Virus record (IMG/VR): IMGVR_UViG_3300042731_005302
DNA length: 64,000 bases
Reading direction: 5' to 3' (one strand)
Source of the DNA: a virus
Shown here piece by piece: positions 31,347 to 45,742 of the stretch (positions within the stretch are counted from its first letter, which is position 1; each line of letters starts with the position of its first letter). The translations under genes were made by a program, and so were the position numbers. A model generated the notes under the pieces. The model ran no database searches, was not told where the DNA came from, and worked only from the letters and a program-made list of their open reading frames with translations.

Positions 31347-32831
31347 TTACGCCGACTCTTCTACAGGATGCAGGCCCAGGCTGGCCGCCACCACTTCAGG
31401 AGGAATCTCTTCGGCCCCGCCTTCAGAAATAGACTTCTGGCCGCTGGTGAATCTCTCCTCGAACTGGGCTTTGGTAGCGGTATAAAACTTAACTACTTGG
31501 GCCGGCTCGGAAGCGCTCAGATCACTGGGAGTCTGGCCGATCCGGACCTGCATATCACGAGCCGCGTCTCTGGCCACAGCCAACAGACTCCCGATAGTAC
31601 CTGCCTGAGCCTCAGCCGTAGCAGTTGCTGTAGCCAGGTTGGCCTCAGCAGCGGCCAGATCACGCTGAGCGGTGCGAAGCTCCTCACGGAGAAATGCTAC
31701 CATCTCGGAAGGCTGTTCTGTCTCGGCTGCCGGAGTATTGTCGTTGGCCTGGGTTTCAGGCGTCTCTTCCTCAGAAGCCTCGGTTTCAGGGGTTTCAGAC
31801 TCATGACCAGCCGTACCCTCAGAGTCTGTGTTCTCAGAAGGAGCTTGCCCCAGGGCGGCCAACTGCTCTTCGCTCATCTCGATTTTCTTAGCCATGAGGC
31901 CTCCACGCAGTAGAATTGAGTTTGCAATGTGACTATATTGAACCTGTGATTGATTGCCTAGATTACTCTGATCCAAGCGACCAAGCAAAGATTCCAAATC
32001 TGTGACGCTGTCAGCCAGCCCTAGCTGTACTGCTTCTTCCATGAAGAACGTCTTACCTTGGCCCCACTCAGACTCATCTTCAAGAGAGACGGGCCGGCGG
32101 GCTGCGACATGCTGGGTAAAGAACCCACCAATTGTGGAGACCTTTTCCTGCAGCATGTCTAATGCTTTCTGAGAGATCGGCTCAGACGGATGGCCGAGGG
32201 CCTTATACTCTCCGGAGCGAACGACTCGGCGGTCGATGCCTCGGTCCTTCAACATCCCGGCAATCGAGGTATATTCGATCACTGCGCCGATAGATCCAGC
32301 TTCAGCCATGCGTCCGCCGTAAATCTTCTGGGTTTCAGCAGCCAGCCAGTATCCAGCAGAAGCAGCCTGACGCTTGATAAAAGAGTATGAAGGAGTATCC
32401 TTGCCAATCTCTCGTATGGCAGAGCCTGCCGTCTCAACCCCGGAGGCACTACCACCTGGAGTGGACCAAAGATACAGCAAAGAAGTTACGTCTGGATCTT
32501 CAGAGAGCCGGCGGGCGGCATAGGTTATAGAATCATACGAAACCAAGCCGAACCATGCGTTAAAGTAACTGGAATCATCAACCAGAGGGCCGTCTACTTC
32601 CACCACGCCGACAGACCCAACCTTGAAACTAATGGAATCCGCTAGGAACTCCATCAGCCTGACAACCGGGTCCTCGTCATCATCTTCGTCTCCATCAGAA
32701 GCAAACAATGCCACTGACTGGGGAGAGATATTAGGATGCTCTAGCAGGTAGGCGTTGGCATCAGCCAACTGCAGGTAGGAGCGCTCATCTCCAAGCCAAA
32801 TATCCGGGACTCTGTATAGAAACTTGTGCAT
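31347..32831 (-). CDS. S49 (SppA/ClpP-like) prohead protease fused to an acidic scaffold-like C-terminus
   Basis: LWSTPGGSASG and QAASAGYWLAA (catalytic Ser context). C-terminal Glu/Thr/Ala-rich coiled region. Confidence 0.8.
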   Translation of the reverse strand: MHKFLYRVPDIWLGDERSYLQLADANAYLLEHPNISPQSVALFASDGDEDDDEDPVVRLMEFLADSISFKVGSVGVVEVDGPLVDDSSYFNAWFGLVSYDSITYAARRLSEDPDVTSLLYLWSTPGGSASGVETAGSAIREIGKDTPSYSFIKRQAASAGYWLAAETQKIYGGRMAEAGSIGAVIEYTSIAGMLKDRGIDRRVVRSGEYKALGHPSEPISQKALDMLQEKVSTIGGFFTQHVAARRPVSLEDESEWGQGKTFFMEEAVQLGLADSVTDLESLLGRLDQSNLGNQSQVQYSHIANSILLRGGLMAKKIEMSEEQLAALGQAPSENTDSEGTAGHESETPETEASEEETPETQANDNTPAAETEQPSEMVAFLREELRTAQRDLAAAEANLATATATAEAQAGTIGSLLAVARDAARDMQVRIGQTPSDLSASEPAQVVKFYTATKAQFEERFTSGQKSISEGGAEEIPPEVVAASLGLHPVEESA

Positions 32832-32907: not shown

Positions 32908-33252
32908 CTACCACCTACAACTATCCCCGGTGAACTGCACATGCCCAATAAGCGTCTGTGCAGGGGAAGCATCAGTTACAACCAAGAACTTGAGGGTGTA
33001 CAAAACACCTGCCTGCATGCCTGAAACGGTAGCCAAAGCAACTTGACCCGTCGGGATCGTGCTGCCCAAAATATCCATGGGCCGATCACTTATCTGCTGG
33101 CCAGTGATAGTCAGATCCGAGGACCCCTCCTCCGTTACCGTAGGAGAGCCAGTAAGCAATTCCCCAGGATACAGATCCTCAGCAAAAGAGGCTCTGATGG
33201 TCCTGGTAGACCCCGGAGGAACTCCGGGGCGTTGTGGAGCTAACGATCCCAT
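32908..33252 (-). CDS. hypothetical protein (beta-rich)
   Basis: 114-aa ORF in the structural operon. Confidence 0.5.
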   Translation of the reverse strand: MGSLAPQRPGVPPGSTRTIRASFAEDLYPGELLTGSPTVTEEGSSDLTITGQQISDRPMDILGSTIPTGQVALATVSGMQAGVLYTLKFLVVTDASPAQTLIGHVQFTGDSCRW

Positions 33253-33261: not shown

Positions 33262-33633
33262 TTACACTGGAGCAAAGCCGCGAAGCTGGCGATAGATCTC
33301 ACGGGCATCCTTGGCTCCGGCCACCGCACCCTTGCCTTCAGGGAACCGAGCCCGAGCCCAGAGGGACACTCCACCGTTATCGGCCTTGGTGCCGTCTTTA
33401 ATGTGGATACGTAGAGCCCCTTTTGGGGGCGCTGCTACATCTGTACCGGCCACGCCAATCAGAACCTCAAACTTGGCAATACACTTAGCGACGGTGAGCC
33501 AGTACTGATCGTAGTCCTTCTCATCGACTCCAATCTCACCCAAAATCTCCGGGTAGAACTCGTCAGCCTGAGTTTCAATAAATCCAGGACCACGCACTGT
33601 GGCCCAATCTGGCAGCTGTACTTTACGGGGCAT
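33262..33633 (-). CDS. hypothetical protein
   Basis: 123-aa ORF. Confidence 0.5.
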   Translation of the reverse strand: MPRKVQLPDWATVRGPGFIETQADEFYPEILGEIGVDEKDYDQYWLTVAKCIAKFEVLIGVAGTDVAAPPKGALRIHIKDGTKADNGGVSLWARARFPEGKGAVAGAKDAREIYRQLRGFAPV

Positions 33634-33662
33634 GTCAATAACCTCTGGAATAAGACTAAAAC

Positions 33663-34103
33663 TTAAGAAGCTCGGACAAATCCCTCAGAATTTATCTGAG
33701 CGGTGATGTCGCTTCCGTCCGTAGTCACCGCGAAGTCGTGGTGAGTCAAGGGAATGCGCCCGGTGTCGGCAGCAGACTCTTCATACGCTACTACGAGCTT
33801 GGTCAACGTATTATTTGTCGCCCCGCCGGCAGGAGACCAAGTCTGGTCTCCTAGGTCAACATCAACCCAGTTGTTCGTGTCATCTACTTCGATAACTCCA
33901 GTAAGTCCTGTCTTCCTAGCATACGAGGTAAAGTCAGCCTCGGTATTACCGGCGGGAGTTAGCAGAGCGTCGATAGTGTCGTAGTCTACCAGTGTGGCTT
34001 CAGCCTCGTTTGCCTTCAGCAGAAGGACAAGGACCACTGTGTCACTGTCACGGATCTTCTCCGCGAAAGCACCCTTTGCAATATTGAAAACACCGTCGGC
34101 CAT
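33663..34103 (-). CDS. hypothetical protein
   Basis: 146-aa ORF directly downstream of the repeat protein. Confidence 0.5.
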   Translation of the reverse strand: MADGVFNIAKGAFAEKIRDSDTVVLVLLLKANEAEATLVDYDTIDALLTPAGNTEADFTSYARKTGLTGVIEVDDTNNWVDVDLGDQTWSPAGGATNNTLTKLVVAYEESAADTGRIPLTHHDFAVTTDGSDITAQINSEGFVRAS

Positions 34104-34117
34104 GATCCTTACCTCTA

Positions 34118-36589
34118 CTATGGTTTTGGGATTGAGAACTCTAAACGCTCTTGTGGCGTAATAAACTGTAGTTTATTACCTGGGATAACATACTGCAATC
34201 CCTCAGGAATAATTACTACTGCGCCGTGGATGGAAATGTGCAGGGCACTATCGATCTCTTGAGCTTGGTCCATGCTCACAGAGCGATAATAAGTAACATT
34301 TTGGCCGTAATCTGTTTCTGAGGCCTGACCCGTACCAAATACTCGGATGGCCGAAGCAGGTAAGGCAGAATCAGCTTCTTCAGCATAAACTATAGGTTTG
34401 ACCTTGCTGGACCCTACTGCAAACGCCGTGTCAGTCTCTACCGCTTGACCTACTACGCTGGCCGCACTCCAAGACACGGAAAAAGCTGAATCAGCTTCTT
34501 GAGATTGGCCTAAGTTAACAGCATAGGCCGGTACCACAGGAAGCGCAACATCTGTCTCTAGGGCTAGGCCAATGGCCAACTCTCTGAACCAATCAACTGA
34601 GAAGGCAGAATCGGTTTCTAGGGCCTGGCTTATCGACTTAGCCAAACTCCAAGAGATAGAGAATGCCGAGTCGGTTTCCTGGGCCTGTCCTACCACTGTA
34701 GCTACAGCAGGAGACACATCAAAAGCAGAATCAACTTCAGAAGCCTGGCCTACTGCCAATTCCCTGAACCAATCAACCGAGAAGGCCGAATCAACCTCTT
34801 GTGCCTGATTAACTAGAATTGCGCCACTGGATACGACCTCAAAAGCTGAATCAGTTTCCAGAGCTTGAGACAGGTGGGACGTTTTAAGGCTACCTAACGA
34901 GAACGCCGAGTCCGCCTCAAGCGCCAAGGACAGGGAGATCGATTTAAAGAGGTCTGTAGTAAGCGCAGAATCTGTCTCCAGGGCCTGTCCTAGCTCTAAT
35001 GCCTTAGTCCAAGACAATAAGAAGGCAGAGTCCGCCTCTTGAGCCTGCTGCAAAGCCCAAGCCTTACTAGCGTCAAGACCAAATGCTGCATCCGTCTCTG
35101 TACTCAGTCCCACGGAATATCCACGCAAGATAGTAGGTGCAAGGCCTGAGTCAGTTTCATTGGCCAGCCCAACTACGGTGGAAGACGAGGTGCTGACAGC
35201 AAATGCCGTATCTGACTCCGCAGCTTCCCCTAGTTCATAGGCTCTAAGGATAGCGACAGAGAAGGCAGAGTCAGCTTCTGAGGCTTGGCTAATCGCATAG
35301 CTTCTAACCAAGGCCATTGCAAAAGCAGTGTCTGCTTCCGTAGCTAATCCAGCCGGAATAATCCGCACCGCCGCTATATCGAACGAAGAATCTGCCTCTG
35401 AAGCCAGCCCCAAAGTGTAACTTCTTACAGGCGTGATAGCGAAAGCACTATCCGTCTCAACCGCTTGAGAGACAGAGACGAAGGCTCCAGCATCCTCGTA
35501 CTCTGCATCCCACCAGTTATGAGAAAGTGGATGCCCGCTAAGCCAGCCAGGATATACGTACTCAACTGTAGCCAGCGAGAAACTGGTATCCGTCTCAACT
35601 GCTTGCAGAACCAGCACAGATCTTGAGTACGAAATAGAAAAAGCAGAATCTGCTTCTAAAGCCTGACCTACAGCAGAAACCTTCAGGATTGACGCTGGCT
35701 GAGCGCTGTCAGATTCCTGAGCTTGGCCGGCTGAAAGATTTTTACTGGCTGAGGCTTGGAGAGCAGAGTTCGTCTCACTCGATATCCCTACCGCATAGCT
35801 TCTTTCTATCCCTGTAGAAAATGCGCTATCAGTCTCAGAGCTTTGCCCGACCGCTATAGTGGAACCCAGTTCCAAAGCAAACGCAGAGTCAGCTTCAGCA
35901 GCCTGACCAGCAGCGACTGACTTTACTTCAACAGCTGGTTGCGCACTATCCGCTTCAGAGGCCAACCCAACAGACACGGTCTTGATCGCCGTGACGGAGA
36001 ATGCACTATCTGTGCTGCTGGACTGACCTACACTCTTGGTCTTAGCGCCAGTAACCGGCTGCGCAGAGTCCGTCTCAGATGCCTGGTTTACAGGCTCCGT
36101 GATTGTGGCCGAATACTCCCCTTCTATACGTACATCGTAAATAGACGCAGTAGCACCATCAGGCCCGGCAGCCTTAACCCCATTACAGCGAACTCTAATA
36201 TTGCTGTAGTTGGGAAATCCTGACCCACCCCAATCAGCACTATTCAGAGTGGCAGAAAATTCCTGCTTGGTTACCGCTGCGCTGATACTGGCCTGAAGAG
36301 TATGTTTCGTAACACCGTTCTGGTCGGTAACAAGCAGCTCTACGGTGTCATTAGTACCGGCTGTTTTACTGAACCAAACATATATGACAGCACTGGTCCA
36401 TGTCTGCGCTTTGGTGGCCCAGGCCGCAGTACCCTCACTAGCAGATGAGCCTCCTACGGATATTCCTGGGGTAGCATTTAGATTTAGGCCGTCGGCAGAT
36501 GTAGTTGTGTTACCGTCATAGCTATTACCCGGATTACTGAATGAAGCCGGATTATAAGCATCTGTCGGTCTTAAGGTTTCAGTGGCCAC
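34118..36589 (-). CDS. 823-aa repeat protein: ~170-aa N-terminal domain plus ~30 tandem 20-aa E-[TA]-D-S-A-F repeats
   Basis: The translation shows the recurring ...GQAxExDSAFxxxxxxxxxx unit from about residue 175 to 790. The DNA shows a higher-order 180-bp periodicity (34581..34620 vs 34761..34800). Confidence 0.75.
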   Translation of the reverse strand: MATETLRPTDAYNPASFSNPGNSYDGNTTTSADGLNLNATPGISVGGSSASEGTAAWATKAQTWTSAVIYVWFSKTAGTNDTVELLVTDQNGVTKHTLQASISAAVTKQEFSATLNSADWGGSGFPNYSNIRVRCNGVKAAGPDGATASIYDVRIEGEYSATITEPVNQASETDSAQPVTGAKTKSVGQSSSTDSAFSVTAIKTVSVGLASEADSAQPAVEVKSVAAGQAAEADSAFALELGSTIAVGQSSETDSAFSTGIERSYAVGISSETNSALQASASKNLSAGQAQESDSAQPASILKVSAVGQALEADSAFSISYSRSVLVLQAVETDTSFSLATVEYVYPGWLSGHPLSHNWWDAEYEDAGAFVSVSQAVETDSAFAITPVRSYTLGLASEADSSFDIAAVRIIPAGLATEADTAFAMALVRSYAISQASEADSAFSVAILRAYELGEAAESDTAFAVSTSSSTVVGLANETDSGLAPTILRGYSVGLSTETDAAFGLDASKAWALQQAQEADSAFLLSWTKALELGQALETDSALTTDLFKSISLSLALEADSAFSLGSLKTSHLSQALETDSAFEVVSSGAILVNQAQEVDSAFSVDWFRELAVGQASEVDSAFDVSPAVATVVGQAQETDSAFSISWSLAKSISQALETDSAFSVDWFRELAIGLALETDVALPVVPAYAVNLGQSQEADSAFSVSWSAASVVGQAVETDTAFAVGSSKVKPIVYAEEADSALPASAIRVFGTGQASETDYGQNVTYYRSVSMDQAQEIDSALHISIHGAVVIIPEGLQYVIPGNKLQFITPQERLEFSIPKP

Positions 36590-36779
36590 TTAGTGCTAAC
36601 TCTCGGGCGAAAGCCCAGCCCTGGCCGACGACCGGGACTACCAGCCAATCCGGCAAGTGATGGCGCAGGGGATTGCGCGGCGAGAGCAGGACCAGTGTTG
36701 TGGCGTAATACAGCGAGCCCAGCCAGCGGGGGACGGTTGGCGGTGTGTGTCGCATGTCGAGGAGGTTGATAGGGTGCAT
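36579..36779 (-). CDS. possible small hydrophobic protein
   Basis: 66-aa ORF bridging the two flanking genes and overlapping the downstream start. Sits in a locally GC-rich segment. Coding status is uncertain. Confidence 0.3.
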   Translation of the reverse strand: MHPINLLDMRHTPPTVPRWLGSLYYATTLVLLSPRNPLRHHLPDWLVVPVVGQGWAFARELALSGH

Positions 36780-36784
36780 AAATG

Positions 36785-37576
36785 TCAATCCCCGCTACAG
36801 ACTGATGCTCTTTCGCTTGCGTTGAGCGCCCTGTTGTAGAGCCTAATGTTATCTATTACTCCGTCAAATGCTCTACCAGTGTCAGGTGTTCCCACTCTGA
36901 ACGCGATACCTACATAAACGTCCCTGCTCCCTGTATTGGGAGATCCTGGAACAGATACTGCCGTGCCGGTCTCCACGCAATCGACATATAGTCGTAGGTA
37001 CGATCCATCATGGACGGCAAAGAGATAATAAGAAACTCCTGTAGAAAGTGCTTGTGTCGAGATAACGCTATAAGGCGTGCTACTGACATAAAAAGATGCC
37101 TCTATCTTCCCGCTTGCGTGTTCCCGTATAGAATAATTGTATCCAGTAACGGAGGACGCATCTGATTTAGTAACTATTCCCGCGTAATCGGTACTGGATG
37201 TCTTTTTTATCCGTACCCCTATAGTAAATTCATCCAGATCTAAAGATGTTGAATCCGTGGCGAGTCCGTACTCATTGGTTTGATCAAAATCTAACGCGTA
37301 CCCAGACCCATTTAGCCCGGCGACCCAATCCTCAGGATCCGTGTTGTACAGAGTCAGATTGTTGCTGTTGCCACTGGCATCGGTTGCAGTAGACCCGCTT
37401 CCCTCGTCGAATTTCCACCACCCAACCAATCCATCCGTAATCTCAAACGGCGTAAACGCATCCACCACCATCGACCCATAGACGGTGGATGGCCATTGTG
37501 GGCGCTGATTGATGTCGCCGGCAAAGGCGAAGACTGCCGTCGCCGCGAGAAGAAAGGAGAGGATTTTATTGCGCAT
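36785..37576 (-). CDS. LamG/concanavalin-A-like lectin domain protein with Sec signal peptide
   Basis: N-terminus MRNKILSFLLAATAVFAFA/GD. GLVGWWKFDEGSGSTATDASGNSNN...FDGVIDNIRLYNRAL is the classic Laminin_G_3 signature. Confidence 0.7.
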   Translation of the reverse strand: MRNKILSFLLAATAVFAFAGDINQRPQWPSTVYGSMVVDAFTPFEITDGLVGWWKFDEGSGSTATDASGNSNNLTLYNTDPEDWVAGLNGSGYALDFDQTNEYGLATDSTSLDLDEFTIGVRIKKTSSTDYAGIVTKSDASSVTGYNYSIREHASGKIEASFYVSSTPYSVISTQALSTGVSYYLFAVHDGSYLRLYVDCVETGTAVSVPGSPNTGSRDVYVGIAFRVGTPDTGRAFDGVIDNIRLYNRALNASERASVCSGD

Positions 37577-37587
37577 GGTTTTGGCTC

Positions 37588-38295
37588 TTAGGGCAGGGTC
37601 CAGCCTGTACCAATCTCGCCGTCCTGAATAGTGCCGGCGTTGATGCGATCCAGCAGGTTGAAGTAGCGGATTATGTTGGGATCGGCCGCTGACTGGAACC
37701 TTGTACTGGTATTGTCGTATACGGTTTGCATGTTGATGCCCTGCACATCGGTGGGCAGTGTTTGCCCGTCCACGATGCGGGACAGCAGGGACATCATAAT
37801 GGCCAGGTCACGAGTGAACTCATCCGTGGCGAAATGGGCACTGATCGATTCGGAGGCGACGTTGCGCAGGTTGATCTTGCGCTGATCGTTATTCAGGTCT
37901 ACCACCCGATGAACCTGCTGGAACGTATCCGTAGTTGTACACTCAGGGTCATAGCAGGTACTGACGTTCTGGCCACAAACCAAATAAGGCGACTCCACAC
38001 GGGAGAGATTGGAGTCGTAATCCGGGAAAGCCCCGGCACCTTGAACCTGGAGCATGGCGAAATTCGCCGGATACCCGGGGTCAATACCGCAAGGCTCCGT
38101 GTCACAATCGTAGGTATCTGGGTCCAGCGCTGGCCAAGAACGCAGACCGCCCACGGTGGAGCAGTCTGTGGTGTCGATCAGTTGCCACTGGGCTGTGTGA
38201 TCAACAGGGTAAGTCAAATCGGCACGCACCGAATAAGCAACAGACATCAAACCGACGCCCCAAAACAATGCCGCAACAATCATTTTCACGTTCAT
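37588..38295 (-). CDS. Cys-rich protein with Sec signal peptide
   Basis: MNVKMIVAALFWGVGLMSVAYSVRA/D. The predicted mature part contains 7 Cys. Confidence 0.55.
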   Translation of the reverse strand: MNVKMIVAALFWGVGLMSVAYSVRADLTYPVDHTAQWQLIDTTDCSTVGGLRSWPALDPDTYDCDTEPCGIDPGYPANFAMLQVQGAGAFPDYDSNLSRVESPYLVCGQNVSTCYDPECTTTDTFQQVHRVVDLNNDQRKINLRNVASESISAHFATDEFTRDLAIMMSLLSRIVDGQTLPTDVQGINMQTVYDNTSTRFQSAADPNIIRYFNLLDRINAGTIQDGEIGTGWTLP

Positions 38296-39026
38296 TAGTA
38301 ATGCCCCTGTAGAGTAATGACCAGACCTTTCTCTGTGCCCCCAGTAGAAACTTGATCAACTTGAGCACACAACTTAGAATCATTTGCAATTGAACCAGCG
38401 CTTACACTAGCTGTTCCGTCATCGACATTGGCGTTATACGCAATATCCAGCTTATTGGTCCCCATGATTGTAGTGCCATCATCATGTATATCGACAACCA
38501 GGGTTCCGCTTGTTCCTCCTTGCGTATTAACTGAGGCCGAAACGCTGGTTATAGTGAAGGCACCACTGGTCCAATAGAAACAAGCAAGATCATCAGTACC
38601 TGAAGAAATCTGGCTGACATCGTTGGTAATACGCCAGATGATTTCCTTGCCGATGTATTTCTTCAGTCTTGAAGCCGCCGACTTCCGGTTGGTCCCAGCG
38701 CCACCATCATCAACCAGAATCAGGTCCGCATCCGCCAGGTCTGCGCCGATATCGGTCCCGCCATCTAGGTTAATGTCGGCAATATCTCCGTCCCAACCGC
38801 CTCCAGGAAGGTCGCCGACATCGCACTTTCTCAGTTCGCCGGTAGAGGCCCAACAGACCAAGTAATCTCCTGCTGCAGGAGAAACTATCTCAGTCAAGTC
38901 TGTAACAGCAATCGACTCTGCAGGGCCTGTGCCCGCAGTGAGACGCCCCACAATGTCCCATTGGTCTACTGCAACCGCAGGAGCCGCTATAAGCAGGCTT
39001 AGAAGTACGGCGAATAGCCTCTTCAT
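38295..39026 (-). CDS. fibre-like protein with Sec-type signal peptide
   Basis: MKRLFAVLLSLLIAAPAVA/VD. ADADLILVDDGGAGTNRKSAASRLKKYI resembles motifs seen in phage fibre/structural proteins. Confidence 0.55.
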   Translation of the reverse strand: MKRLFAVLLSLLIAAPAVAVDQWDIVGRLTAGTGPAESIAVTDLTEIVSPAAGDYLVCWASTGELRKCDVGDLPGGGWDGDIADINLDGGTDIGADLADADLILVDDGGAGTNRKSAASRLKKYIGKEIIWRITNDVSQISSGTDDLACFYWTSGAFTITSVSASVNTQGGTSGTLVVDIHDDGTTIMGTNKLDIAYNANVDDGTASVSAGSIANDSKLCAQVDQVSTGGTEKGLVITLQGHY

Positions 39027-39028
39027 CG

Positions 39029-39427
39029 TTACACGTCCACTAGATTGTTGGTTATACTAACCCAATCGCCGTCTTTAAAGGCATAGTAATTGCCATCAGA
39101 TGCCGGAGGACTTATCAGGTCGTCCACTTTAACCGCATAGACGGTCAAGCCACTGGTGCCCAAGGTGCCGTGAGCAGCTTGTATAGAGACCCTGGTTAGT
39201 GTCCCGCCACTGGAAGACCAAGTCGCGTTCCACACCTCGAAATTACCTGAAGCATCAAGAGCAGCAATTACAACAGAATCGGTATCGTCAAAGTCAGTGT
39301 TAGCGTCCGCCGCAGCTTCAGCAAAGGTGCGCCCACGGGTCAGGGCAGTTCCGCTCAGGGTGATGACAGTGCCAGAGCGAGAACACGCTGATTCGCCAGC
39401 TAAATCTGGAGATTTAATGGTAGCCAT
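39029..39427 (-). CDS. small fibre protein with foldon-like C-terminus
   Basis: C-terminal PPASDGNYYAFKDGDWVSI compares with the T4 fibritin foldon [20 protein letters not shown]. Confidence 0.5.
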   Translation of the reverse strand: MATIKSPDLAGESACSRSGTVITLSGTALTRGRTFAEAAADANTDFDDTDSVVIAALDASGNFEVWNATWSSSGGTLTRVSIQAAHGTLGTSGLTVYAVKVDDLISPPASDGNYYAFKDGDWVSITNNLVDV

Positions 39428-39469
39428 GGGCCTATACTACTGTTTGTTGCTATCGATTAGTAGTTATCT

Positions 39470-40021
39470 TTATGGGATAACCAAGCCTGTAGCCGCCCCT
39501 AGCACGACCTTTCCCAGCAGGATGCCGGTGGTGGCCAACGCCTGGTAGGTAGCAGCATCAGGATTATCCACGTAGCTCTGAGAGGCCTTACCAAGTACTT
39601 TGAGGCGGGCATCAAGAATGGCCCAGGCCGTGCGGGATTGAATAGACAGGTCAGGCAGACGGCCTTGAATCAATGTGGCAGCCTCCTGGTAGACTTCTTT
39701 CCCGGTCAAGTCCCATTCTTGTACGTCGTCTATCTCAGGCATCACCCCCAAAGACAAAGCCACCTCGACCTGCGCAGCCAAAGACATGGCCTGTTCCTGC
39801 AACTGCTGAGCCATTTCCCATTCTCTGGTTGTGAACGCTGCCCGGTCCTCTTGCAGGGCCTCCCACAGCGTCATGCGGGCCTCATTGGCCCGTTCTACCT
39901 TGGCTTGGGCGGATGTAAGGGTCTCGACCGGGGGCATGGTCTTACAGCCCTGCAAAGATGCGACCACTAGGATCGTCAGGGAAGCGAGTATGGAGACTAA
40001 AATGTGTTTGTAATGAATCAT
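39470..40021 (-). CDS. lipoprotein with hydrophobic C-terminal tail (u-spanin-like architecture)
   Basis: MIHYKHILVSILASLTILVVASLQGC lipobox, a helical middle section, and C-terminal ALATTGILLGKVVLGAATGLVIP. Confidence 0.55.
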   Translation of the reverse strand: MIHYKHILVSILASLTILVVASLQGCKTMPPVETLTSAQAKVERANEARMTLWEALQEDRAAFTTREWEMAQQLQEQAMSLAAQVEVALSLGVMPEIDDVQEWDLTGKEVYQEAATLIQGRLPDLSIQSRTAWAILDARLKVLGKASQSYVDNPDAATYQALATTGILLGKVVLGAATGLVIP

Positions 40022-40176
40022 GATGGTTTCTCTTTATCCGTGTAAGTGTTTAATATCCGCTACGACGGCATCAAACTTATGCAATGCCGACGTGACTAAG
40101 AATTCTGAGCGCTTTCTCTGCTTGTCGGCCTTATTTGTACGCCTCTTAAAGGCCAACCAACATGACTTGAAGCAGC

Positions 40177-40383
40177 TTATTCTTTCCCGGTCCTCCCCAT
40201 CCGGTCCTTTATGATAAGCAAAACATCGGATACAGCGGAAAACCGCTCTAAAAAAGAGTTGAGCAGTGTTTCGTGGTGCTTTTTGTCGGCCAGCCGCTCC
40301 TGCCTGCAGAGAAGGAACATGCCGAGGCACACTGCCGCAAGAAGGTATCCTTTCGATACCAGGTACTCCAGTAATGCTTCCAT
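40177..40383 (-). CDS. possible small single-pass membrane protein
   Basis: 68 aa with YLLAAVCLGMFLLC and then a charged tail. The SD is weak. Confidence 0.35.
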   Translation of the reverse strand: MEALLEYLVSKGYLLAAVCLGMFLLCRQERLADKKHHETLLNSFLERFSAVSDVLLIIKDRMGRTGKE

Positions 40384-40470: not shown

Positions 40471-41934
40471 TCACACCCTCTTGCTTTGATCTCTTCCTCC
40501 AGAGGAAGTAGGCGTCTGACTAGACACCTGCCTCCCGTTCGGGTCGCCATTCGGACTCGGCAATTCGCTCATCCCTTTGCCCTGATAGAACATTGTGCCT
40601 GACAGTGGCGGAGCCCCTGCGGGCCTAGCTCCTGTTCCAAGTATAGAAGCGGCCTCATCATCGGTATAGAACCCAAGGCTCAGTAGCTCAAGCACTCGGT
40701 TCTGCTTGATGCTTTTATGGGCCTCAAGCTCGTTCTCCGGGCGCAAATCGATAGGATTGAACTTGAACTTTACATAGACATCAATTCCCAGCAGACGCAC
40801 CGCCAACGTCAGGGCTCGGCTGAGGACTTTCTCTACCGGCCCATGCAAGGCCGCTGCCACTTTGGAAAACAGCATGGATTCCGTAGACGCTACGTTTTGA
40901 GATCCGCCAAGCCGCAGCCCCAAAATAGAAGGATTTGCCTTCAAGGCGGAAGCTGTCAGACCAGACATGGCATCCAGCAGGTTCTTGTAGTCCGCCTTCT
41001 CTCCAACGGTCTCGATGGAATCCACTTGAGCCAGGTCATAAACCACCAGCGCATCTTCAGGCTGAAGGTTTTTCAGGACAGTCTCGATATCGCTGCGGAC
41101 AGATTCTAAGTATGTGGATAATTGGTCCGGGTTTTTATGAACCTTCGGGGGCGCAGACTGCACCACCTTCTGATAGTCCAGCTTGACGACGATGCGCGGC
41201 CCGCCTGTCTGCCGGACCACTCGGCGCATGTCTTCAATGAACTCGTCGTAGTGGAACAGCCGATGAAACCCGGAGATCAGAAAGGAAAGATTGTAGTTGA
41301 CATTGGCACTGCGCATGACCTCCCCTACCCATACGTTAGGCAGGTCCAGATCTACTTCTGCAGATTGCCCTGGCTCAGGCTTGAGTTTCTTCTGCGAAGG
41401 CCATCGCCGGCCCTTGCCGTCTGTCTTCCAGTTGATGGTGTCATAAGGAAACAACTGCAGCCTGTCAGGCATCTTATACTTATTCAGCACCAGCTCGCTT
41501 GAAACTCCACCTGTAAGGGCAGCCTCAAGCAAAGCCCGTTCTTTCAGTGTGCTGACATCCTCTTTGTCTGAAAACCCTTTGGTGTAGTCATATACCGTGT
41601 CCCACGAGGCCAAAATAGTTTCAGCCGCCCTCTGCCCTGCTACGCTGAACTGCTTAGTCCCAGTGTCGTAAGCCATGATGTAGTGGCCGGACATGGCCGT
41701 CTGCACCAACGACAATATAACAGAGCTGACCAGCCCGTCAGTATGGTACAACGTCCGTAGAGTGGCCGAGGGGTCAGTAATCTGGCGAACATCAGTGACT
41801 TGCCAGTTCGGATCGTATTGGTAGTCTTTCGGAAGCTGCTGATCTTTGATTCCTACTGCAGAAGGAACCTGGGACTGAACCTTATTGACCACTCTGCGCG
41901 GAAGGGTGACTACTGCATTTGCTGGGGCAGCCAT
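40471..41934 (-). CDS. portal protein
   Basis: 487 aa. Overlaps the terL stop. Assigned mainly from its canonical position after the large terminase. Confidence 0.65.
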   Translation of the reverse strand: MAAPANAVVTLPRRVVNKVQSQVPSAVGIKDQQLPKDYQYDPNWQVTDVRQITDPSATLRTLYHTDGLVSSVILSLVQTAMSGHYIMAYDTGTKQFSVAGQRAAETILASWDTVYDYTKGFSDKEDVSTLKERALLEAALTGGVSSELVLNKYKMPDRLQLFPYDTINWKTDGKGRRWPSQKKLKPEPGQSAEVDLDLPNVWVGEVMRSANVNYNLSFLISGFHRLFHYDEFIEDMRRVVRQTGGPRIVVKLDYQKVVQSAPPKVHKNPDQLSTYLESVRSDIETVLKNLQPEDALVVYDLAQVDSIETVGEKADYKNLLDAMSGLTASALKANPSILGLRLGGSQNVASTESMLFSKVAAALHGPVEKVLSRALTLAVRLLGIDVYVKFKFNPIDLRPENELEAHKSIKQNRVLELLSLGFYTDDEAASILGTGARPAGAPPLSGTMFYQGKGMSELPSPNGDPNGRQVSSQTPTSSGGRDQSKRV

Positions 41935-43712
41935 ATTTGACTCTCTTTATTGGGAGCAAACCCAGGCATTTTAGCCTTTGAAACGAAGGTGCCGTGCGGC
42001 AAAGCAGGCATGGCAGCGAACTGTCCTTCCATCATTTTAATCGCTGTGTACGCATATAACAAACTGAAGGCATAGTGGTCTTCTGTGTCAGACGAAACCC
42101 AGGCCTGTGTGGTCTCCCCTGTTGTCTCCGAAACTCTGTTTACACGCCTGAGTTTTTTCAGGTGAGTAATTAGAAGCTCAACCTCAGGATTGTCCTTCGG
42201 GAAAATAAACCTACCGGCATTAATGTCCTTAACCATGTCGGTAATCATCGCCGTCCGTGCAATGGTGATAATTTGCTCTACCTCGTTGAGTGAGTAATTT
42301 TCCAACCCCTTGATAGTTCTAGCAAAGTAAGCCGCCCACATCGTGTGATACCGGCTGCCCTGTATGAGCCTCCCCGGCACCGTCACGTCCGGCCCCCCGT
42401 CCACTATACCTTTATATACGCCGAACTGGTCTATTCGCTCCAGCGTCTCCTCCGACACCTTGTCTGTTCCGTCTCCGTTGATCTGCTGCCGTATCCGCTC
42501 CAGCCAATGGACCACGTACCTACCACCATGCTCGGACAGCACCGTCAAATGGCAGGTCTTGCCAACGTCCAGCCCCAACGCCGTACCAAGCATCCTCGAA
42601 GCGTCCGGCAGAGTCTGCAGACCTGACTTGGCCTTGTCCAGTGCGGCCTGCGCTACCGCCGCATCAGCCGGCAAGTGCGCATGGCCAAGCCCGAAGTTGA
42701 TCCAGTCGTCCGCCCGCTCATAGTTTTGAACCGCAGTGATAATCTTTTCGGTCGTATTGTATTTAGGAACGCAAAGTGGACTCACATAGAAGGTTTGAGT
42801 GGCCTTTTCCGGATATTTGGGCACCCAAGCCCTCAGAACAGGGTTCATCAAGTTCTCTCGCGTGACCTCGTTGCCGCAACAACGACATTTCACATACGAT
42901 TTGTCAGGCCGTACCCTGGGATCGTCCAATTCTGCCTTGGTCAGAGTGATCAGATCTCCGTCAAAACCAGGCAACACGATATCGACAATCGGGTCAACCT
43001 CCACCCACTGCCCACATTTCTCGTGGTAAACCATGTACACATTTTGACTTCCAGACTTATGCACCTTGTCTATCCCGTAATCAGGCAGAGTCGGAGTCGA
43101 AAAGTCCTGCAGAATCTCGGTCCCAGGCTCATTATGCGTCAATCGAGAAAGAAATGAGGTCAAAGCAGTTTGATTACAGAAATCTATTTCGTCCCGTATC
43201 ACCCCCCGACAAGGAACAGAAATCGCCTGCCCCGTCCGCTGCGCCCCGGTCAAGTACAGGAACGAATTCCCTATCCTTTTGAGCTTCGTACTGTCAACTT
43301 CCTTATGTTTCATTCGCTGCAACTGCGGTGAAGCCTCAATAGCCGGGTTGATTCTCGCGGTTGCAAACTGCCCCGCGTAAGTTGTTGTTTGTAAAGAATA
43401 AATCCAATGACTCCCGTCCAATAAAGTCATCAAGCCCAATATCTCCCGTGCCGACAACTCCGACACCCCGACCTGGGATGACTTTTTCACCCCAATATAG
43501 GGTGCCTCACAGATTAAAATTCCTAATTGATATTCGTGATCCTTGAAAGACCAGGGCAAACTCGGATCATGCGGACTCCTTAAATTCGCACACATCCATT
43601 CCGGCAGAGCCGCCCGCCCCGAGGTCCGATTCAAAGCCAGCCTCAGCCGCTCCAACCTCACCCGATAAGCCGGGTCCAGCTTCGGCGTGGTGTGAACCGC
43701 AGGGGCCGTCAT
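41910..43712 (-). CDS. terL: terminase large subunit (GpA-like)
   Basis: Walker A-like GVKKSSQVGVSE, Walker B-like VIRDEIDF, and CRCCGNEV Zn-finger as in lambda GpA-type terminases. 600 aa. Confidence 0.8.
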   Translation of the reverse strand: MTAPAVHTTPKLDPAYRVRLERLRLALNRTSGRAALPEWMCANLRSPHDPSLPWSFKDHEYQLGILICEAPYIGVKKSSQVGVSELSAREILGLMTLLDGSHWIYSLQTTTYAGQFATARINPAIEASPQLQRMKHKEVDSTKLKRIGNSFLYLTGAQRTGQAISVPCRGVIRDEIDFCNQTALTSFLSRLTHNEPGTEILQDFSTPTLPDYGIDKVHKSGSQNVYMVYHEKCGQWVEVDPIVDIVLPGFDGDLITLTKAELDDPRVRPDKSYVKCRCCGNEVTRENLMNPVLRAWVPKYPEKATQTFYVSPLCVPKYNTTEKIITAVQNYERADDWINFGLGHAHLPADAAVAQAALDKAKSGLQTLPDASRMLGTALGLDVGKTCHLTVLSEHGGRYVVHWLERIRQQINGDGTDKVSEETLERIDQFGVYKGIVDGGPDVTVPGRLIQGSRYHTMWAAYFARTIKGLENYSLNEVEQIITIARTAMITDMVKDINAGRFIFPKDNPEVELLITHLKKLRRVNRVSETTGETTQAWVSSDTEDHYAFSLLYAYTAIKMMEGQFAAMPALPHGTFVSKAKMPGFAPNKESQIWLPQQMQ

Positions 43713-43900: not shown

Positions 43901-44307
43901 GACTGGTAACTCCGGGCTTGAGCCAGATGCAGCTCCAATGCCTGTAGAAACTGCTGCTGGTACTCTTCCGGCAGAGCCTGTGCCGCAGAGATAACCGCCA
44001 GCTCGAACTGCTTGTCTTCGTGCTCTTTGTGCATGCTGTTTCGAGCCTTGCGGATGGACTCGATAACCTGACGCGCCGCAGAGAGCGCCTTCTCCACCCG
44101 GATGGCGTCAATGCCGTACTTGATCTTGCCGTCCTTGGTGGACACCTCTGAGAGCAGGGCCTGGGCTACCAGTTGAGAGCGCTTGTGAAACTCTCCTTCC
44201 GTGTACAGGGTTCCGGCAGAGCCCGGCTTAGAGCCGCCGGCAGGGCCGTGATGGGCAGAGTAGCTCTCTTCTTCGGCTGCTGCTTGCATAGGGTCGTAGG
44301 GGGTCAT
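43897..44307 (-). CDS. hypothetical protein (small terminase candidate by position)
   Basis: First gene of the leftward operon. 136 aa and helical, located downstream of the 35-bp repeats. Confidence 0.35.
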   Translation of the reverse strand: MTPYDPMQAAAEEESYSAHHGPAGGSKPGSAGTLYTEGEFHKRSQLVAQALLSEVSTKDGKIKYGIDAIRVEKALSAARQVIESIRKARNSMHKEHEDKQFELAVISAAQALPEEYQQQFLQALELHLAQARSYQS

Positions 44308-44339
44308 GGCTGGTTCCTGCAGAGGAAAGGATTCCTTAT

Positions 44340-44368
44340 ATTAGAGATTTTATGGGGTTAGGAGTCAA
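44340..44368 (-). promoter_or_regulatory. candidate sigma70-type promoter for the leftward structural operon
   Basis: Minus strand reads TTGACT-N17-TCTAAT about 30 nt upstream of ATG 44307. Confidence 0.3.
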
Positions 44369-44415
44369 GTGGTGGTTTGTGGGAGTGGGTTTAAGGGCCG
44401 GGGAGTGGGAGGTAC

Positions 44416-44550
44416 TACTTAAGATGTCAGAAAAGGGGTTTGGTCTGTGTTACTTAAGATACTATAAGTGAAATTTGAGCTATACTACTTAAAGTACTAG
44501 AAGTGAAATTGGGGGCGTACTACTTAAAATACTAGAAGTGAAATTTGAGG
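44416..44550. repeat. four direct repeats with exact 35-bp period (tacttaaRatactaKaagtgaaattt)
   Basis: Copies start at 44416 (partial), 44451, 44486 and 44521. Confidence 0.85.
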
Positions 44551-45009
44551 ACGTGTTGAAGGGGGGCCTAGGGCGCACGCATTTATTTTCCCAGGAAAAA
44601 CAGGTGTAGGGGGTTAGCTATTGGGAATCGAGTGCCACCTACCGGCACTCAACTAATTTAATGACTAACCAGTAGTTAAACTAACGAAAATAAATTAGTT
44701 AATTTAATTACTAAATTAAGAGTGTAAAGAAACCTGACACCTGGACGGGAACTAAACGGGTAGTTTTGGCGTAAGTCATTGATAAATAAGGAAAAATTAA
44801 GTGTAAAATTTCCAACTGGATTTTAGGAATAAAGGGTTATATCTGTAAAGAATATTTTACACTTACAAGTTTAATTCATAGCTGAAATAGTAATTAGATT
44901 TGTGTAGTGTGTGTAAGTTATTGATTTTATTAAAGTTTTCAAACTTGGCCCATGGATTGCAACATAGGTTGCTCTTTTCGTTCTTTTACAGTGCCGCCGC
45001 TACTGTTGA

Positions 45010-45025
45010 GTGTGACATGTTACAC
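45010..45025 (+). promoter_or_regulatory. dyad motif M1 (degenerate GTGTGA-CATG-TTACAC)
   Basis: 88 nt upstream of ATG 45113. The change in the left arm is G:T-compatible. Confidence 0.5.
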
Positions 45026-45112
45026 CCAACAGCATACCTGAACAGGTAGGCAAACAACCGGTGGAACATAGCGGCATGTTCCACGTGAAACAAGTTGTAG
45101 GAGATTACTTTC

Positions 45113-45736
45113 ATGACTAAGAAACAGCGCACCTTCGAGCAAGCCATTTCCGATTTGAATAGCGCCATCAATGGCCATCGCAGGGGAGCGAAAATCCCGG
45201 AGCGTATCCGGGAATGCTTTTCCCTGTCTGCCGATAACGCTTCCTTTGTGGAAGCGTTTGGAGCGCTCATTGAGAAACAGTTCCGGGGCACAAAGGGAAC
45301 CGATCCGACGCGGGCCGCCTTACGTATGGCGCTCAAACGTGAGCGGGATGGAAACGGATATCAGCGAGATGGAGACCCGCAGCGCTGGAATATCAGCGTA
45401 GAATTCGATAAGAAAGGTAGTCCCAGCGTAGGGGTTACCATGCACAAAACCGCAGAGCCGGAACCGGAACAGGACGAAAACACGATCGAACCAGCCGCCT
45501 CCAATCCTGCCACTGCTGGAGCGGAAAGGGCCAGCGTGACGGAACTGGAGAAGGGAATCAAAAGCATGTCTGCCCCAGAGCTTTTGCAAGTGAGCCGAGA
45601 TCTGATTCACGCTATCGAGTCCATGGACGATTCAACCGAAGCGTTGAAGCTCATCCATGCCATCCGCAACAGTCTGACAGCTGCCGCTAAGACTGTTCGG
45701 GAACGTGCTTCCATGGTCGAAGCCAAAGCGGCGTAG
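45113..45736 (+). CDS. hypothetical early protein
   Basis: GTAGGAGA SD upstream. 207 aa. First rightward gene after the divergent control region. Confidence 0.6.
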   Translation: MTKKQRTFEQAISDLNSAINGHRRGAKIPERIRECFSLSADNASFVEAFGALIEKQFRGTKGTDPTRAALRMALKRERDGNGYQRDGDPQRWNISVEFDKKGSPSVGVTMHKTAEPEPEQDENTIEPAASNPATAGAERASVTELEKGIKSMSAPELLQVSRDLIHAIESMDDSTEALKLIHAIRNSLTAAAKTVRERASMVEAKAA

Positions 45737-45742
45737 CCCAAT

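What the first reader, a model, noticed from the sequence alone, without database searches (positions are those of the whole stretch)
33262..40383. A ~7-kb gene cluster inserted between portal and prohead protease
In HK97-type head modules the portal, protease/scaffold and capsid genes are normally adjacent. Here 10-11 ORFs separate portal (40471..41934) from protease (31347..32831). They are a small TMD protein, a lipoprotein with a hydrophobic C-tail, a foldon-ended mini-fibre, three consecutive proteins with Sec-type signal peptides (one a LamG lectin), an 823-aa repeat protein and three unknowns. Most are translationally coupled (TAATG or ATGA overlaps). Fibre-like features combined with export signals inside a head-gene operon is unusual. 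The products could be head fibres or whiskers, a surface-modification or superinfection-exclusion cassette, or virion accessories that assemble outside the cytoplasm.
Basis: partly seen in the sequence, partly recalled or inferred. Interest (0 to 1): 0.75.

Follow-up and report, generated by a model that had tools for sequence, protein, structure and literature searches.

The report
Inserted neck-fibre kit with exported proteins
A 7.6-kb block of ten or eleven genes has been inserted between the portal and protease genes of a long-tailed phage. Part of it looks like a "beads-on-a-string" neck fibre of a kind first seen by cryo-EM in 2023-2025, and three of its fibre-tip proteins appear to have been re-targeted for export out of the cytoplasm, for a reason still unknown.

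Summary
Ten ORFs plus one doubtful ORF fill 7,639 nt between portal and S49 protease, whereas those two genes are adjacent in all six relatives examined. The block runs to 32908, not 33262.

It has three parts:
- **P7-P10.** P10 is a homolog of the phage GP4 fibre-tail adaptor gp77, the Ig-like neck collar. The best solved-structure match of the P8 model is GP4 Fiber-I subunit gp80, but that match is weak. P7 has 30 strict 20-residue repeats and is probably the "rope" that P8 units coat. P8 is 70-79% identical across otherwise unrelated phages. In 33 of 43 viral contigs a 20-residue-repeat protein lies within 5 kb of it, usually just after head genes.
- **P3-P6.** This is a fibre-tip cassette. 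P4, P5 and P6 carry signal peptides that relatives also keep, and P4 and P5 also have conserved cysteine pairs. A relative lacking both features sits at a tail-fibre position in a podophage-like contig. Export looks real; its purpose is not known.
- **P1-P2.** A one-helix membrane protein and a lipoprotein with a C-terminal membrane helix (u-spanin-like topology). No function was established.

Verdict: a new variant of a known kind. The "whisker" reading is partly right, and no step has experimental support.

The parts
40177..40383 (-). P1, 68 aa, a small protein with one transmembrane helix (residues about 11-28). It could be a holin-like or exclusion protein; its function is unassigned.
   Evidence: Hydropathy; gene call. 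No hit in Pfam, PHROG, PADLOC or NCBIfam.
39470..40021 (-). P2, 183 aa, a predicted lipoprotein (SLQG|C, Lys at +2) with an apparently helical middle (by eye, not computed) and a hydrophobic C-terminal 22 residues. This is the topology of a u-spanin.
   Evidence: Sequence and hydropathy. No homolog in cultured phages and no family hit.
39029..39427 (-). P3, 132 aa, a mini-fibre with no signal peptide. It is homologous to the last ~130 residues of a longer fibre protein in L012 and ends in a foldon-like DGxxYxxKDGxWV motif.
   Evidence: tblastn to L012, E 6e-7. Its top three PDB hits are all the fibritin foldon, E 0.09-0.5.
38295..39026 (-). P4, 243 aa. It has a Sec-type signal peptide (MKRLFAVLLSLLIAAPAVA|VD), fibre-shaft motifs (DLDGGTDIG...NRK) and a ~115-aa beta-rich tip domain with a Cys pair.
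   Evidence: Signal-peptide homologs (P0007, L012) and the N-terminally truncated L013 homolog keep the Cys pair. Signal-less homologs (P0043, P0015) lack it.
37588..38295 (-). P5, 235 aa. It has a Sec-type signal peptide ending VRA|DLTYPVDHT and six invariant Cys. The family is rare (12 members, 11 of them from a library of 1.84 billion representatives). It is probably the partner or chaperone of the tip protein.
   Evidence: Ten of 12 members have a 17-25-aa prefix ending in a small residue directly before the conserved motif. Two start at the motif and have no Cys. The AF2 model failed (pLDDT 47).
36785..37576 (-). P6, 263 aa. It has a Sec-type signal peptide (…AFA|GDINQRP) and a LamG/concanavalin-like lectin domain.
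   Evidence: Pfam Laminin_G_3 2.7e-19. Homologs in L012 and L013 keep a hydrophobic N-terminus. LamG is fused to the rope protein in Sedimenticola and is a separate signal-less gene upstream of the rope in Xanthobacteraceae.
36579..36788 (-). A doubtful 66-69-aa ORF between P6 and P7.
   Evidence: It was called in the Logan assembly. It has no homologs and no hydrophobic segment. Nothing else was tested.
34118..36589 (-). P7, 823 aa: a 165-aa N-terminal domain, 30 copies of a 20-residue repeat (consensus +s..vGqAsEtDSAf.....) interrupted by one 26-aa insert, and a short C-terminal tail. It is the proposed 'rope' of a beads-on-a-string fibre. It starts with GTG.
   Evidence: (lag-20 z = 23.8). 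Repeat arrays of 9-30 units occur next to P8 homologs in 12 genome loci and in 33 of 43 viral loci.
33663..34103 (-). P8, 146 aa, the proposed 'bead' (a Fiber-I or whisker-type subunit) that coats the rope repeats.
   Evidence: AF2 pLDDT 95. The best PDB fold hit is 8jou_a, which is GP4 gp80 (E 0.067, TM 0.38-0.40). BFVD TM 0.5-0.87 to uncharacterised phage proteins and to the N-terminal part of a 7-7-1 structural protein; TM 0.4-0.56 to proteins named tail-collar fibre. There are 1,839 homologs, the top 120 at 70-79% identity.
33262..33633 (-). P9, 123 aa, the conserved partner encoded directly after P8. Its role is unknown; an adaptor or assembly factor is possible.
   Evidence: Homologs at 26-47% identity lie directly after P8 in 10 loci. 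No family hit.
32908..33252 (-). P10, 114 aa, an Ig/FN3-like homolog of the GP4 fibre-tail adaptor gp77. This is the collar that rings the head-to-tail adaptor.
   Evidence: Pfam Gp77 E 0.022 for P10. Its homolog in L025 (36.5% identity, E 9e-17) hits Gp77 at 4.4e-6 and 27.6 bits, above the cut-off of 27. hhalign of the pair against GP4 gp77 gives probability 82.6% and E 1e-5 over 73 columns.
40471..41934 (-). Portal gene, the upstream flank of the insertion.
   Evidence: phrog_3753, E 7e-67.
31347..32831 (-). S49 prohead protease/scaffold gene, the downstream flank of the insertion.
   Evidence: Peptidase_S49 5.5e-24; phrog_53 8e-51.

Best explanation
The block is a mosaic accessory-fibre kit acquired by an SHOU24/Lana-like siphophage and transcribed with the late head operon. 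It has three parts.

(1) P7-P10 encode a neck fibre of the GP4 Fiber-I / Bas63 collar-whisker type. P10 forms an Ig-like collar around the head-to-tail adaptor. P7 is an extended rope with 30 near-identical 20-residue sites. P8 subunits bind those sites like beads on a string. The 165-aa N-terminal domain of P7 would be the variable distal end, because relatives have LamG or propeller-like domains at that position. P9 is a conserved helper.

(2) P3-P6 are a fibre-tip cassette: a tip protein, its partner, and a LamG lectin. In this lineage P4, P5 and P6 are exported by Sec, and P4 and P5 are stabilised by disulfides in the periplasm. They work there as a unit. My most likely reading is that a receptor-binding module has been redeployed to mask receptors or envelope glycans, which would exclude superinfection or protect progeny from debris.

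(3) P1 and P2 are envelope proteins linked to the cassette. They are either a holin and u-spanin or exclusion proteins.

Shown: the insertion, the domain features, P10-gp77 homology, the P8-rope linkage, the conserved signal peptides and the cysteine pattern. Inferred: rope-bead binding, neck attachment, and every function proposed for the exported trio and for P1/P2.
For: Insertion: the portal and protease genes are adjacent in six of six relatives.

Collar: P10 family against GP4 gp77 by hhalign gives 82.6% probability and E 1e-5. The L025 homolog exceeds the Pfam Gp77 gathering score.

Bead: the P8 model has pLDDT 95. Its top PDB hit is GP4 gp80, which is present as 10 chains in 8JOU.

Literature: whisker or Fiber-1 dimers wrap a rope like beads on a string. 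The GP4 rope is a separate protein that holds five dimers (PMC12609058). GP4 gp77 is a 93-aa Ig-like ring of 15 copies around the adaptor (PMC11445570).

Rope:
- P7 has a 20-residue period (z 23.8).
- The same period is found in rope proteins of Sedimenticola, Hiyaa and L014, and in GP4 gp79, which is encoded next to gp80 (z 6.3).
- Repeat number varies from 9 to 30.

Linkage: 33 of 43 IMG/VR loci have a 20-residue-repeat protein within 5 kb of P8, against 0 of 176 distant ORFs. L025 has the same P7-P8-P9-P10 order.

Position: upstream neighbours are mainly portal, capsid, protease and head-completion genes. Downstream neighbours include tail tube, gp10-like and gpZ genes.

P8 is 70-79% identical across alpha-, beta- and gamma-proteobacterial phages whose head genes are unrelated. 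That fits a subunit constrained by many identical binding sites.

Export:
- The P4-P5-P6 order recurs in L012 and L013 with signal peptides.
- Ten of 12 P5-family members have a variable prefix ending in a small residue exactly before the invariant [DE][IL][ST]YP[VL]D. Two start at that motif.
- Cysteines occur only in prefix-bearing members.
- The Cys pair in the P4 tip domain is present in the four exported-type homologs (three with a visible signal peptide, one N-terminally truncated) and absent in the two signal-less homologs.
- L017 carries the signal-less cassette next to an SU10-type adaptor gene.
Against: - P8 and gp80 share no detectable sequence similarity. The fold match is weak (TM about 0.4, probability 0.57), and P8 does not hit Pfam Gp80.
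- The P7 repeats do not match gp79 in sequence.
- That gp79 is the GP4 rope is my inference; it is not a named chain in the PDB.
- In two contexts (Paraglaciecola L022, Pam4) the P8 module follows distal-tail genes, not head genes.
- A P10 homolog was found in only one other locus.
- No signal-peptide predictor was run.
- Receptor masking has no direct support. Known masking proteins such as T5 Llp and Cor are unrelated and are not derived from fibres.
- P4 keeps fibre-shaft motifs, which a soluble masking protein would not obviously need.
Confidence: 0.5

Rival explanations
1. P7 is an ordinary trimeric fibre (beta-helix or beta-spiral shaft built of 20-residue repeats). P8 is a free-standing trimeric anchor domain that docks it to the virion. 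There is no rope and no beads.
For: In BFVD the P8 fold matches the N-terminal part of several longer proteins, including a 7-7-1 structural protein (TM 0.69), and more weakly proteins named tail-collar or tail fibre (TM 0.4-0.56). Regular repeats are also typical of fibre shafts. The match to GP4 gp80 is weak.
Against: This does not explain why P8 is far more conserved than any other structural protein here. It does not explain why the repeat is kept so strictly at 20 residues with an invariant ExDSAF core, nor why a gp77-type collar gene travels with it. In rope proteins the variable domains sit at the N-terminus, the reverse of ordinary fibres.
Confidence: 0.22
2. The whole block is just the phage's relocated tail-fibre and receptor-binding genes. 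The N-terminal hydrophobic segments of P4-P6 are not used for export.
For: The distal tail genes after the tape measure (468, 278 and 707 aa) include no obvious long fibre. The structural operon is rearranged elsewhere too. Signal-less relatives of P4 and P5 sit at a tail-fibre locus in L017.
Against: The prefixes keep their n-h-c form and small-residue endings while diverging in sequence. They end exactly where the signal-less homologs begin. Conserved Cys pairs occur only in prefix-bearing members. All three adjacent proteins carry a prefix, in three independent loci.
Confidence: 0.1
3. P1-P6 form a lysis or envelope-disruption cassette: holin (P1), u-spanin (P2), and Sec-exported wall- or outer-membrane-active factors (P4-P6).
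For: P2 has the defining u-spanin topology of a lipobox plus a C-terminal membrane helix. Membrane and coiled-coil proteins also flank the cassette in L012 and L017. No Pfam-recognisable endolysin was found in the window.
Against: None of P3-P6 matches a muralytic or lipolytic family. The P4 tip domain and the P5 family occur in fibre contexts. About 19 kb of the genome lies outside the window and may hold the lysis genes. In T7-like phages lysis genes often sit beside fibre genes, as I recall.
Confidence: 0.1
4. P4-P6 fold and form disulfides in the periplasm, then bind to released virions after lysis (for example onto P3 or the P7 fibre). Part of the virion would then be assembled outside the cytoplasm.
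For: Signal-less relatives look like virion fibre components. P4 keeps shaft and attachment-type motifs. In other phages LamG is fused to, or encoded next to, the rope protein. The cysteine-free P3 remains cytoplasmic.
Against: I know of no precedent in tailed phages. Shorter P4 homologs (P0007, L012) have lost shaft motifs, which suggests a free tip domain is sufficient. No interaction data exist.
Confidence: 0.08

Closest known systems
Phage GP4 Fiber-I / fibre-tail-adaptor complex (PDB 8JOU) and the homologous collar-whisker complex of the Felixounavirus phages Bas63 and Sf14
   Same: There is a gp77-type Ig-like collar protein (P10; hhalign 82.6%). A ~140-aa subunit has GP4 gp80 as its best solved-structure match (P8). 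A neighbouring protein has a 20-residue period like GP4 gp79. The genes are clustered beside head and connector genes.
   Different: P8 and the rope show no sequence similarity to gp80 or gp79. The rope has 30 repeats, against five bound dimers in GP4 and two in Bas63 (PMC12609058). The rope carries a large N-terminal domain. An extra conserved partner, P9, is present. The host phage is a siphovirus. No structure or proteomics exists for this phage.
T4 fibritin (wac) whiskers and the foldon
   Same: The last ~20 residues of P3 align with the foldon (DGxxYxxKDGxWV), and fibritin chains are its three best PDB hits. Both are neck-region accessory fibres.
   Different: The E-values are only 0.09-0.5. 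P3 has no coiled coil and is 132 aa long. Its only clear homolog is the C-terminal part of an unrelated longer fibre.
Tail-fibre gene followed by its assembly or adhesin partner (lambda stf-tfa, T4 gp37-gp38 type cassettes)
   Same: A fibre-tip protein is followed directly by a small conserved partner and a lectin-like protein, in a fixed order in four loci.
   Different: There is no sequence relation to Tfa or gp38. Here all three proteins carry signal peptides, P4 and P5 carry disulfide-type Cys pairs, and the genes sit in the head operon.
Receptor-blocking or exclusion proteins encoded beside receptor-binding genes (T5 Llp, phi80/N15 Cor) and exported morons of the lambda late operon (lom, bor)
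   Same: They are exported or lipid-anchored envelope proteins encoded within late structural operons, next to fibre genes.
   Different: No homology was found. The proteins here are derived from fibre-tip modules. No separate promoter or terminator signal was found. The phage shows no sign of lysogeny in the window.
Unimolecular spanin (T1 gp11 type)
   Same: P2 has an N-terminal lipoprotein signal and a C-terminal membrane helix.
   Different: No adjacent endolysin was found. The periplasmic part appears helical rather than beta-rich (by eye, not computed). The C-terminal helix has a central Lys. There is no homolog among cultured phages.

Membership tests
GP4 Fiber-I / collar-whisker neck-fibre system | An Ig-like fibre-tail adaptor (collar) of the Gp77 family | tested here: met
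   P10 against Pfam Gp77 gives E 0.022. Its L025 homolog scores 27.6 bits against a cut-off of 27. The P10 family against GP4 gp77 by hhalign gives probability 82.6% and E 1e-5.
GP4 Fiber-I / collar-whisker neck-fibre system | A Fiber-I or whisker subunit with the gp80 fold (N-terminal helix plus an incomplete sandwich) | tested here: inconclusive
   The P8 model has pLDDT 95. GP4 gp80 (8jou_a) is its best PDB hit, but only at E 0.067 and TM 0.38-0.40. There is no sequence or profile similarity, and no hit to Pfam Gp80.
GP4 Fiber-I / collar-whisker neck-fibre system | A rope polypeptide that threads through successive subunit dimers | tested here: inconclusive
   P7 has 30 repeats of 20 residues. 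GP4 gp79, encoded next to gp80, also has a 20-residue period (z 6.3). There is no sequence match, the identity of the GP4 rope could not be checked, and no complex was modelled.
GP4 Fiber-I / collar-whisker neck-fibre system | Attachment around the head-to-tail adaptor at the neck | not testable with these tools
   Only gene position is available. Neighbours are mostly portal, capsid and head-completion genes upstream, and tail tube and gp10-like genes downstream. There are exceptions after distal tail genes.
Sec (type I) signal-peptide proteins | A positively charged n-region, a hydrophobic h-region, small residues at -3 and -1, and a prefix that relatives can do without | tested here: met
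   Established by inspection and hydropathy for P4, P5 and P6. In the P5 family, 10 of 12 members have such a prefix ending directly before the conserved motif, and two start at that motif. No dedicated predictor was run and there is no experiment.
Bacterial lipoproteins | A lipobox [LVI][ASTVIQ][GAS]C after a hydrophobic N-terminus | tested here: met
   P2 reads ...LVVASLQG|CK. Gln at -2 is unusual but allowed by the PROSITE pattern as I recall it.
Unimolecular spanins | A lipoprotein signal plus a C-terminal transmembrane helix | tested here: met
   P2 has hydrophobic segments at 5-26 and 161-183.
Unimolecular spanins | Encoded in a lysis cassette with a holin and an endolysin | tested here: inconclusive
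   P1 could be a holin. No endolysin family was found in the window. Part of the genome was not seen.
T4 fibritin foldon | A C-terminal ~27-residue beta-hairpin trimerisation motif | tested here: inconclusive
   The three best PDB hits are foldon chains aligned to P3 residues 108-130, at E 0.09-0.5.
LamG / concanavalin-like lectins | A Laminin_G_3 domain above the Pfam threshold | tested here: met
   P6 scores 70.2 bits against a cut-off of 27.6.
Morons (autonomously expressed inserts in late operons) | Own promoter and terminator, and deviant composition | tested here: not met
   Promoter-like and terminator-like sites are at shuffle level. GC and codon usage fall within or near the range of the core genes.

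The most novel reading that the evidence does not exclude
A complete fibre-tip cassette (tip protein, partner and LamG lectin) has been moved from the cytoplasm to the periplasm so that it can fold with disulfide bonds. It is then added to virions only after lysis. Part of a tailed-phage virion would thus be assembled outside the cytoplasm. In addition, the 30-repeat rope coated with P8 would be a ~100-nm flexible neck filament (a rough estimate of mine). That would give a gene-level candidate for long phage filaments whose proteins are still unknown, such as the capsid fibres of phage 7-7-1.
Probability: 0.1. Interest if true: 0.9.

Novelty: new variant of a known kind. Interest (0 to 1): 0.64.

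Why it matters
The collar-whisker or Fiber-I assembly has so far been described structurally in only three phages: GP4, Bas63 and Sf14. If the reading here is right, it is a widespread, mobile and un-annotated module. There are more than 1,800 P8 homologs, and the rope can be tuned from 9 to 30 repeats and tipped with lectin or propeller-like domains. Neither P8 nor P9 matches any Pfam family, and P7 matches only an uncharacterised PHROG. The module would be a plug-in adhesin system that phages with unrelated heads and tails can exchange.

The exported cassette may be more significant. It appears to be a case where a virion-type receptor-binding module acquired signal peptides on all three proteins and cysteine pairs on P4 and P5. 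Either a new kind of receptor masking or an extracytoplasmic step in virion assembly could explain that. Both ideas can be tested directly with reporter fusions and virion proteomics.

Tried and rejected
- Megablast of the region against phage records found nothing.
- P2 and P3 have no tblastn hit in cultured phages.
- Close relatives of P4 and P5 are absent from IMG/VR. A metagenome scan with the P5 profile confirmed none of its 35 candidate stretches.
- The AF2 model of P5 from five sequences failed (pLDDT 47) and was not used for fold search.
- I thought by eye that the P3 N-terminal part resembles the P0043 N-domain or the GP4 gp75/gp76 fibre N-domains. BLAST does not support this, so I dropped the 'P3+P4 Rosetta-stone fusion' claim. 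P0043 only shows that the P4 tip domain also occurs without a signal peptide.
- P8 against gp80 by HMM and hhalign gave no signal. The P8 profile against PDB sequences gave only chance-level hits.
- The P7 repeat HMM does not hit GP4 gp79.
- The defence library PADLOC gave no hits. NCBIfam gave only a LamG-level match to TafC. I also considered a type IV pilin-like (class III) leader for P6. By eye there is no G|FTLIE-type motif.
- The GP4 structure paper is not held, so the identity of the GP4 rope could not be checked.
- A search for a lysis cassette elsewhere in the window found none, but the Logan contigs do not extend past the window.
- A moron or recent-transfer reading from composition and promoters is not supported.

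Full report
**What is there.**
All genes from the large terminase (41910-43712) to the tail tube (13567-14592) lie on the minus strand. The portal (40471-41934, phrog_3753 E 7e-67) and the S49 prohead protease (31347-32831, Pfam 5.5e-24) are separated by 7,639 nt. This space holds ten clear ORFs, which I call P1-P10, and one doubtful 66-69-aa ORF. An independent gene call on the identical sequence in a Logan assembly gives the same set. The nearest relatives are only 33-41% identical in portal sequence: Vibrio phage SHOU24, Pseudomonas phage Lana and four IMG/VR contigs. In all six the protease follows the portal within about 10-250 nt. The block is therefore an insertion relative to everything comparable. 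It ends at 32908, not 33262, because P10 was left out. Junctions are tight, but only P4/P5 overlap (TAATG). Promoter-like and terminator-like sites are at chance level. Composition differs only mildly.

All are present.
- P1 has one membrane helix.
- P2 has a lipobox (SLQG|C) and a hydrophobic C-terminal 22 residues.
- P4, P5 and P6 have n-h-c type N-termini ending AVA, VRA and AFA.
- P6 is a LamG domain protein.
- P7 has 30 copies of a strict 20-residue repeat.
- The end of P3 aligns with the T4 fibritin foldon. Fibritin chains are its three best PDB hits, but at E 0.09-0.5.

**Module C (P7-P10): a collar plus beads-on-a-string fibre.**

*Distribution and linkage.*
- P8 has 1,839 homologs, the best 120 at 70-79% identity. 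The phage backbone, by contrast, has no relative above about 41%.
- P8 homologs occur in prophages or contigs of alpha-, beta- and gamma-proteobacteria, in Streptomyces phage Hiyaa and in cyanophage Pam4.
- A P9 homolog directly follows P8 in ten loci.
- A protein ending in the same 20-residue repeat array lies nearby in 12 genome loci.
- In 33 of 43 IMG/VR loci with enough flank, a 20-residue-repeat protein lies within 5 kb of P8. None of 176 more distant ORFs shows that periodicity.
- Repeat number ranges from 9 to 30. The N-terminal domains vary: LamG in Sedimenticola, propeller-like repeats in an 1,822-aa protein, and other domains elsewhere.
- One gammaproteobacterial contig (L025) has the same order as the window: rope, P8, P9, P10.

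*Link to a known structure.*
- The L025 homolog of P10 exceeds the Pfam threshold for Gp77, the fibre-tail adaptor of podophage GP4.
- The P10 pair aligns to GP4 gp77 with hhalign probability 82.6% and E 1e-5.
- The AF2 model of P8 is confident (pLDDT 95).
- Its best solved-structure match is 8jou_a, which I confirmed is GP4 gp80, the Fiber-I subunit, present as ten chains.
- That match is weak (E 0.067, TM about 0.4) and has no sequence support.

*What the literature says.*
- In GP4, Bas63 and Sf14 an Ig-like collar rings the head-to-tail adaptor.
- Whisker or Fiber-I dimers wrap an extended 'rope' like beads on a string.
- The rope completes each subunit's incomplete sandwich.
- The GP4 rope is a separate protein that carries five dimers (PMC12609058; PMC11445570).

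*Gene order in GP4.* The order is gp80, gp79, gp78, gp77. gp79 has a 20-residue period (z 6.3).

*Reading.* I therefore read P10 as the collar, P8 as the bead and P7 as a long rope. This explains the strict period. It also explains the unusual conservation of P8, which would have to fit up to 30 near-identical sites. A GTG start with a weak ribosome-binding site for P7, against ATG with a strong one for P8, would suit a low rope-to-bead ratio.

*Position.* Neighbours of P8 modules are mainly portal, capsid, protease and head-completion genes upstream, and tail tube, gp10-like and gpZ genes downstream. That fits a neck accessory. In Paraglaciecola and Pam4, however, the module follows distal tail genes.

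**Module B (P3-P6): an exported fibre-tip cassette.**
- Gene order. The order fibre, P4-like, P5-like, LamG recurs in two short metagenomic contigs, L012 and L013. The P5-like and LamG proteins there, and L012's P4-like protein, keep hydrophobic N-termini; L013's P4-like ORF is cut off at its N-terminus.
- P5 family. It is very small: five members by word search and 12 in total, after a profile scan of 1.84 billion representatives and one homolog found in L017.
- Signal prefixes in the P5 family. Ten members have a 17-25-residue prefix of variable sequence. It has a charged start, a hydrophobic core and a small-residue end. It lies directly before the invariant [DE][IL][ST]YP[VL]D. Two members begin at that motif.
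- Cysteines. They occur only in prefix-bearing members, and six are invariant in the closest five.
- P4. It shares a widespread fibre-shaft motif (DLDGGTDIG...NRK) with many fibre-like proteins. Its tip domain has a Cys pair in the four exported-type homologs and none in the two signal-less homologs.
- The signal-less version. Contig L017 carries the signal-less, cysteine-free cassette: fibre P0043, a P5-like protein and a LamG protein. It lies downstream of an SU10-type head-to-tail adaptor gene, which is a normal fibre locus.

The three proteins therefore seem to have changed compartment together. This argues that export is real and that they act as a unit.

Their function in the envelope is not shown. 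I favour redeployment of a receptor-binding module for receptor or glycan masking, because exclusion genes are often linked to fibre genes. I hold this only weakly. Post-lysis arming of virions and a lysis-related role remain open.

LamG also links modules B and C. It is fused to the rope in Sedimenticola and is a separate upstream gene in Xanthobacteraceae.

**Module A (P1, P2).**
Only topology is established. P2 has the u-spanin layout. No endolysin family was found in the window, and about 19 kb of the 82.7-kb source contig was not seen. Membrane and coiled-coil proteins also sit beside the cassette in L012 and L017.

**Verdict.**
The 'whisker' idea is supported for P7-P10, with attachment at the neck rather than on the capsid. 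The export signals are supported comparatively. The purpose of the exported trio is unresolved. Everything rests on sequence comparison, one structure prediction and published structures of other phages.

Noticed in passing
window 13567-16907 (minus strand): The connector-like genes (316 and 188 aa), the tail terminator (PF13554) and the tail tube (Phage_tube_2) lie at the 3' end of the tail operon, after the tape measure and distal tail genes. In SHOU24 and Lana their homologs lie between the capsid and chaperone genes. This is a second rearrangement of the structural operon.
   Followed up: partly
L032 (GP4, MH638294) 8948-9925, gene gp79: GP4 gp79 (325 aa), encoded next to the Fiber-I gene gp80, has a 20-residue periodicity (z 6.3). 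It is not a named chain in the PDB. It is a candidate for the GP4 'rope' protein.
   Followed up: partly
L021 2366-3061 and L022 7092-7787: In Glaciecola and Paraglaciecola contigs a 231-aa protein with a signal-peptide-like N-terminus lies between the P9-like gene and an 890-aa rope gene. There the module follows homologs of the window's distal tail genes (19857-21263 and 19024-19860).
   Followed up: partly
L067 4478-4861: One IMG/VR contig has a true Pfam Gp80-family (GP4 Fiber-I) protein 4.1 kb upstream of its P8 homolog. The two families can therefore co-occur in one phage.
   Followed up: partly
window 21264-27857: The tape measure protein is 2,197 aa, which implies a very long tail.
   Followed up: no
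window 36579-36788: A 66-69-aa ORF overlaps the end of P6 and the start of P7. It has no homologs, and whether it is a gene is unclear.
   Followed up: no
window 41910-41934: The terminase and portal ORFs overlap by 25 nt.
   Followed up: no
window 1-13515 and 44000-64000 (plus strand): The replication and nucleotide-metabolism modules include DNA polymerase A with a 5'-3' exonuclease domain (2360-5920), SbcCD-like genes (9068-12299), dCMP deaminase (13015-13515), an Nmad5 protein (50710-51348), DUF4942 (55632-57311), a MoxR-like AAA ATPase (59690-60679) and a SpoU methylase (60633-61133). No integrase or endolysin family was seen.
   Followed up: partly
window 33663-34103 (P8): The invariant residues of P8 include an acidic cluster (D74, N77, D81, D83, D86) and T120-H121-H122-D123. 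These could be a metal site or the rope-binding groove.
   Followed up: no
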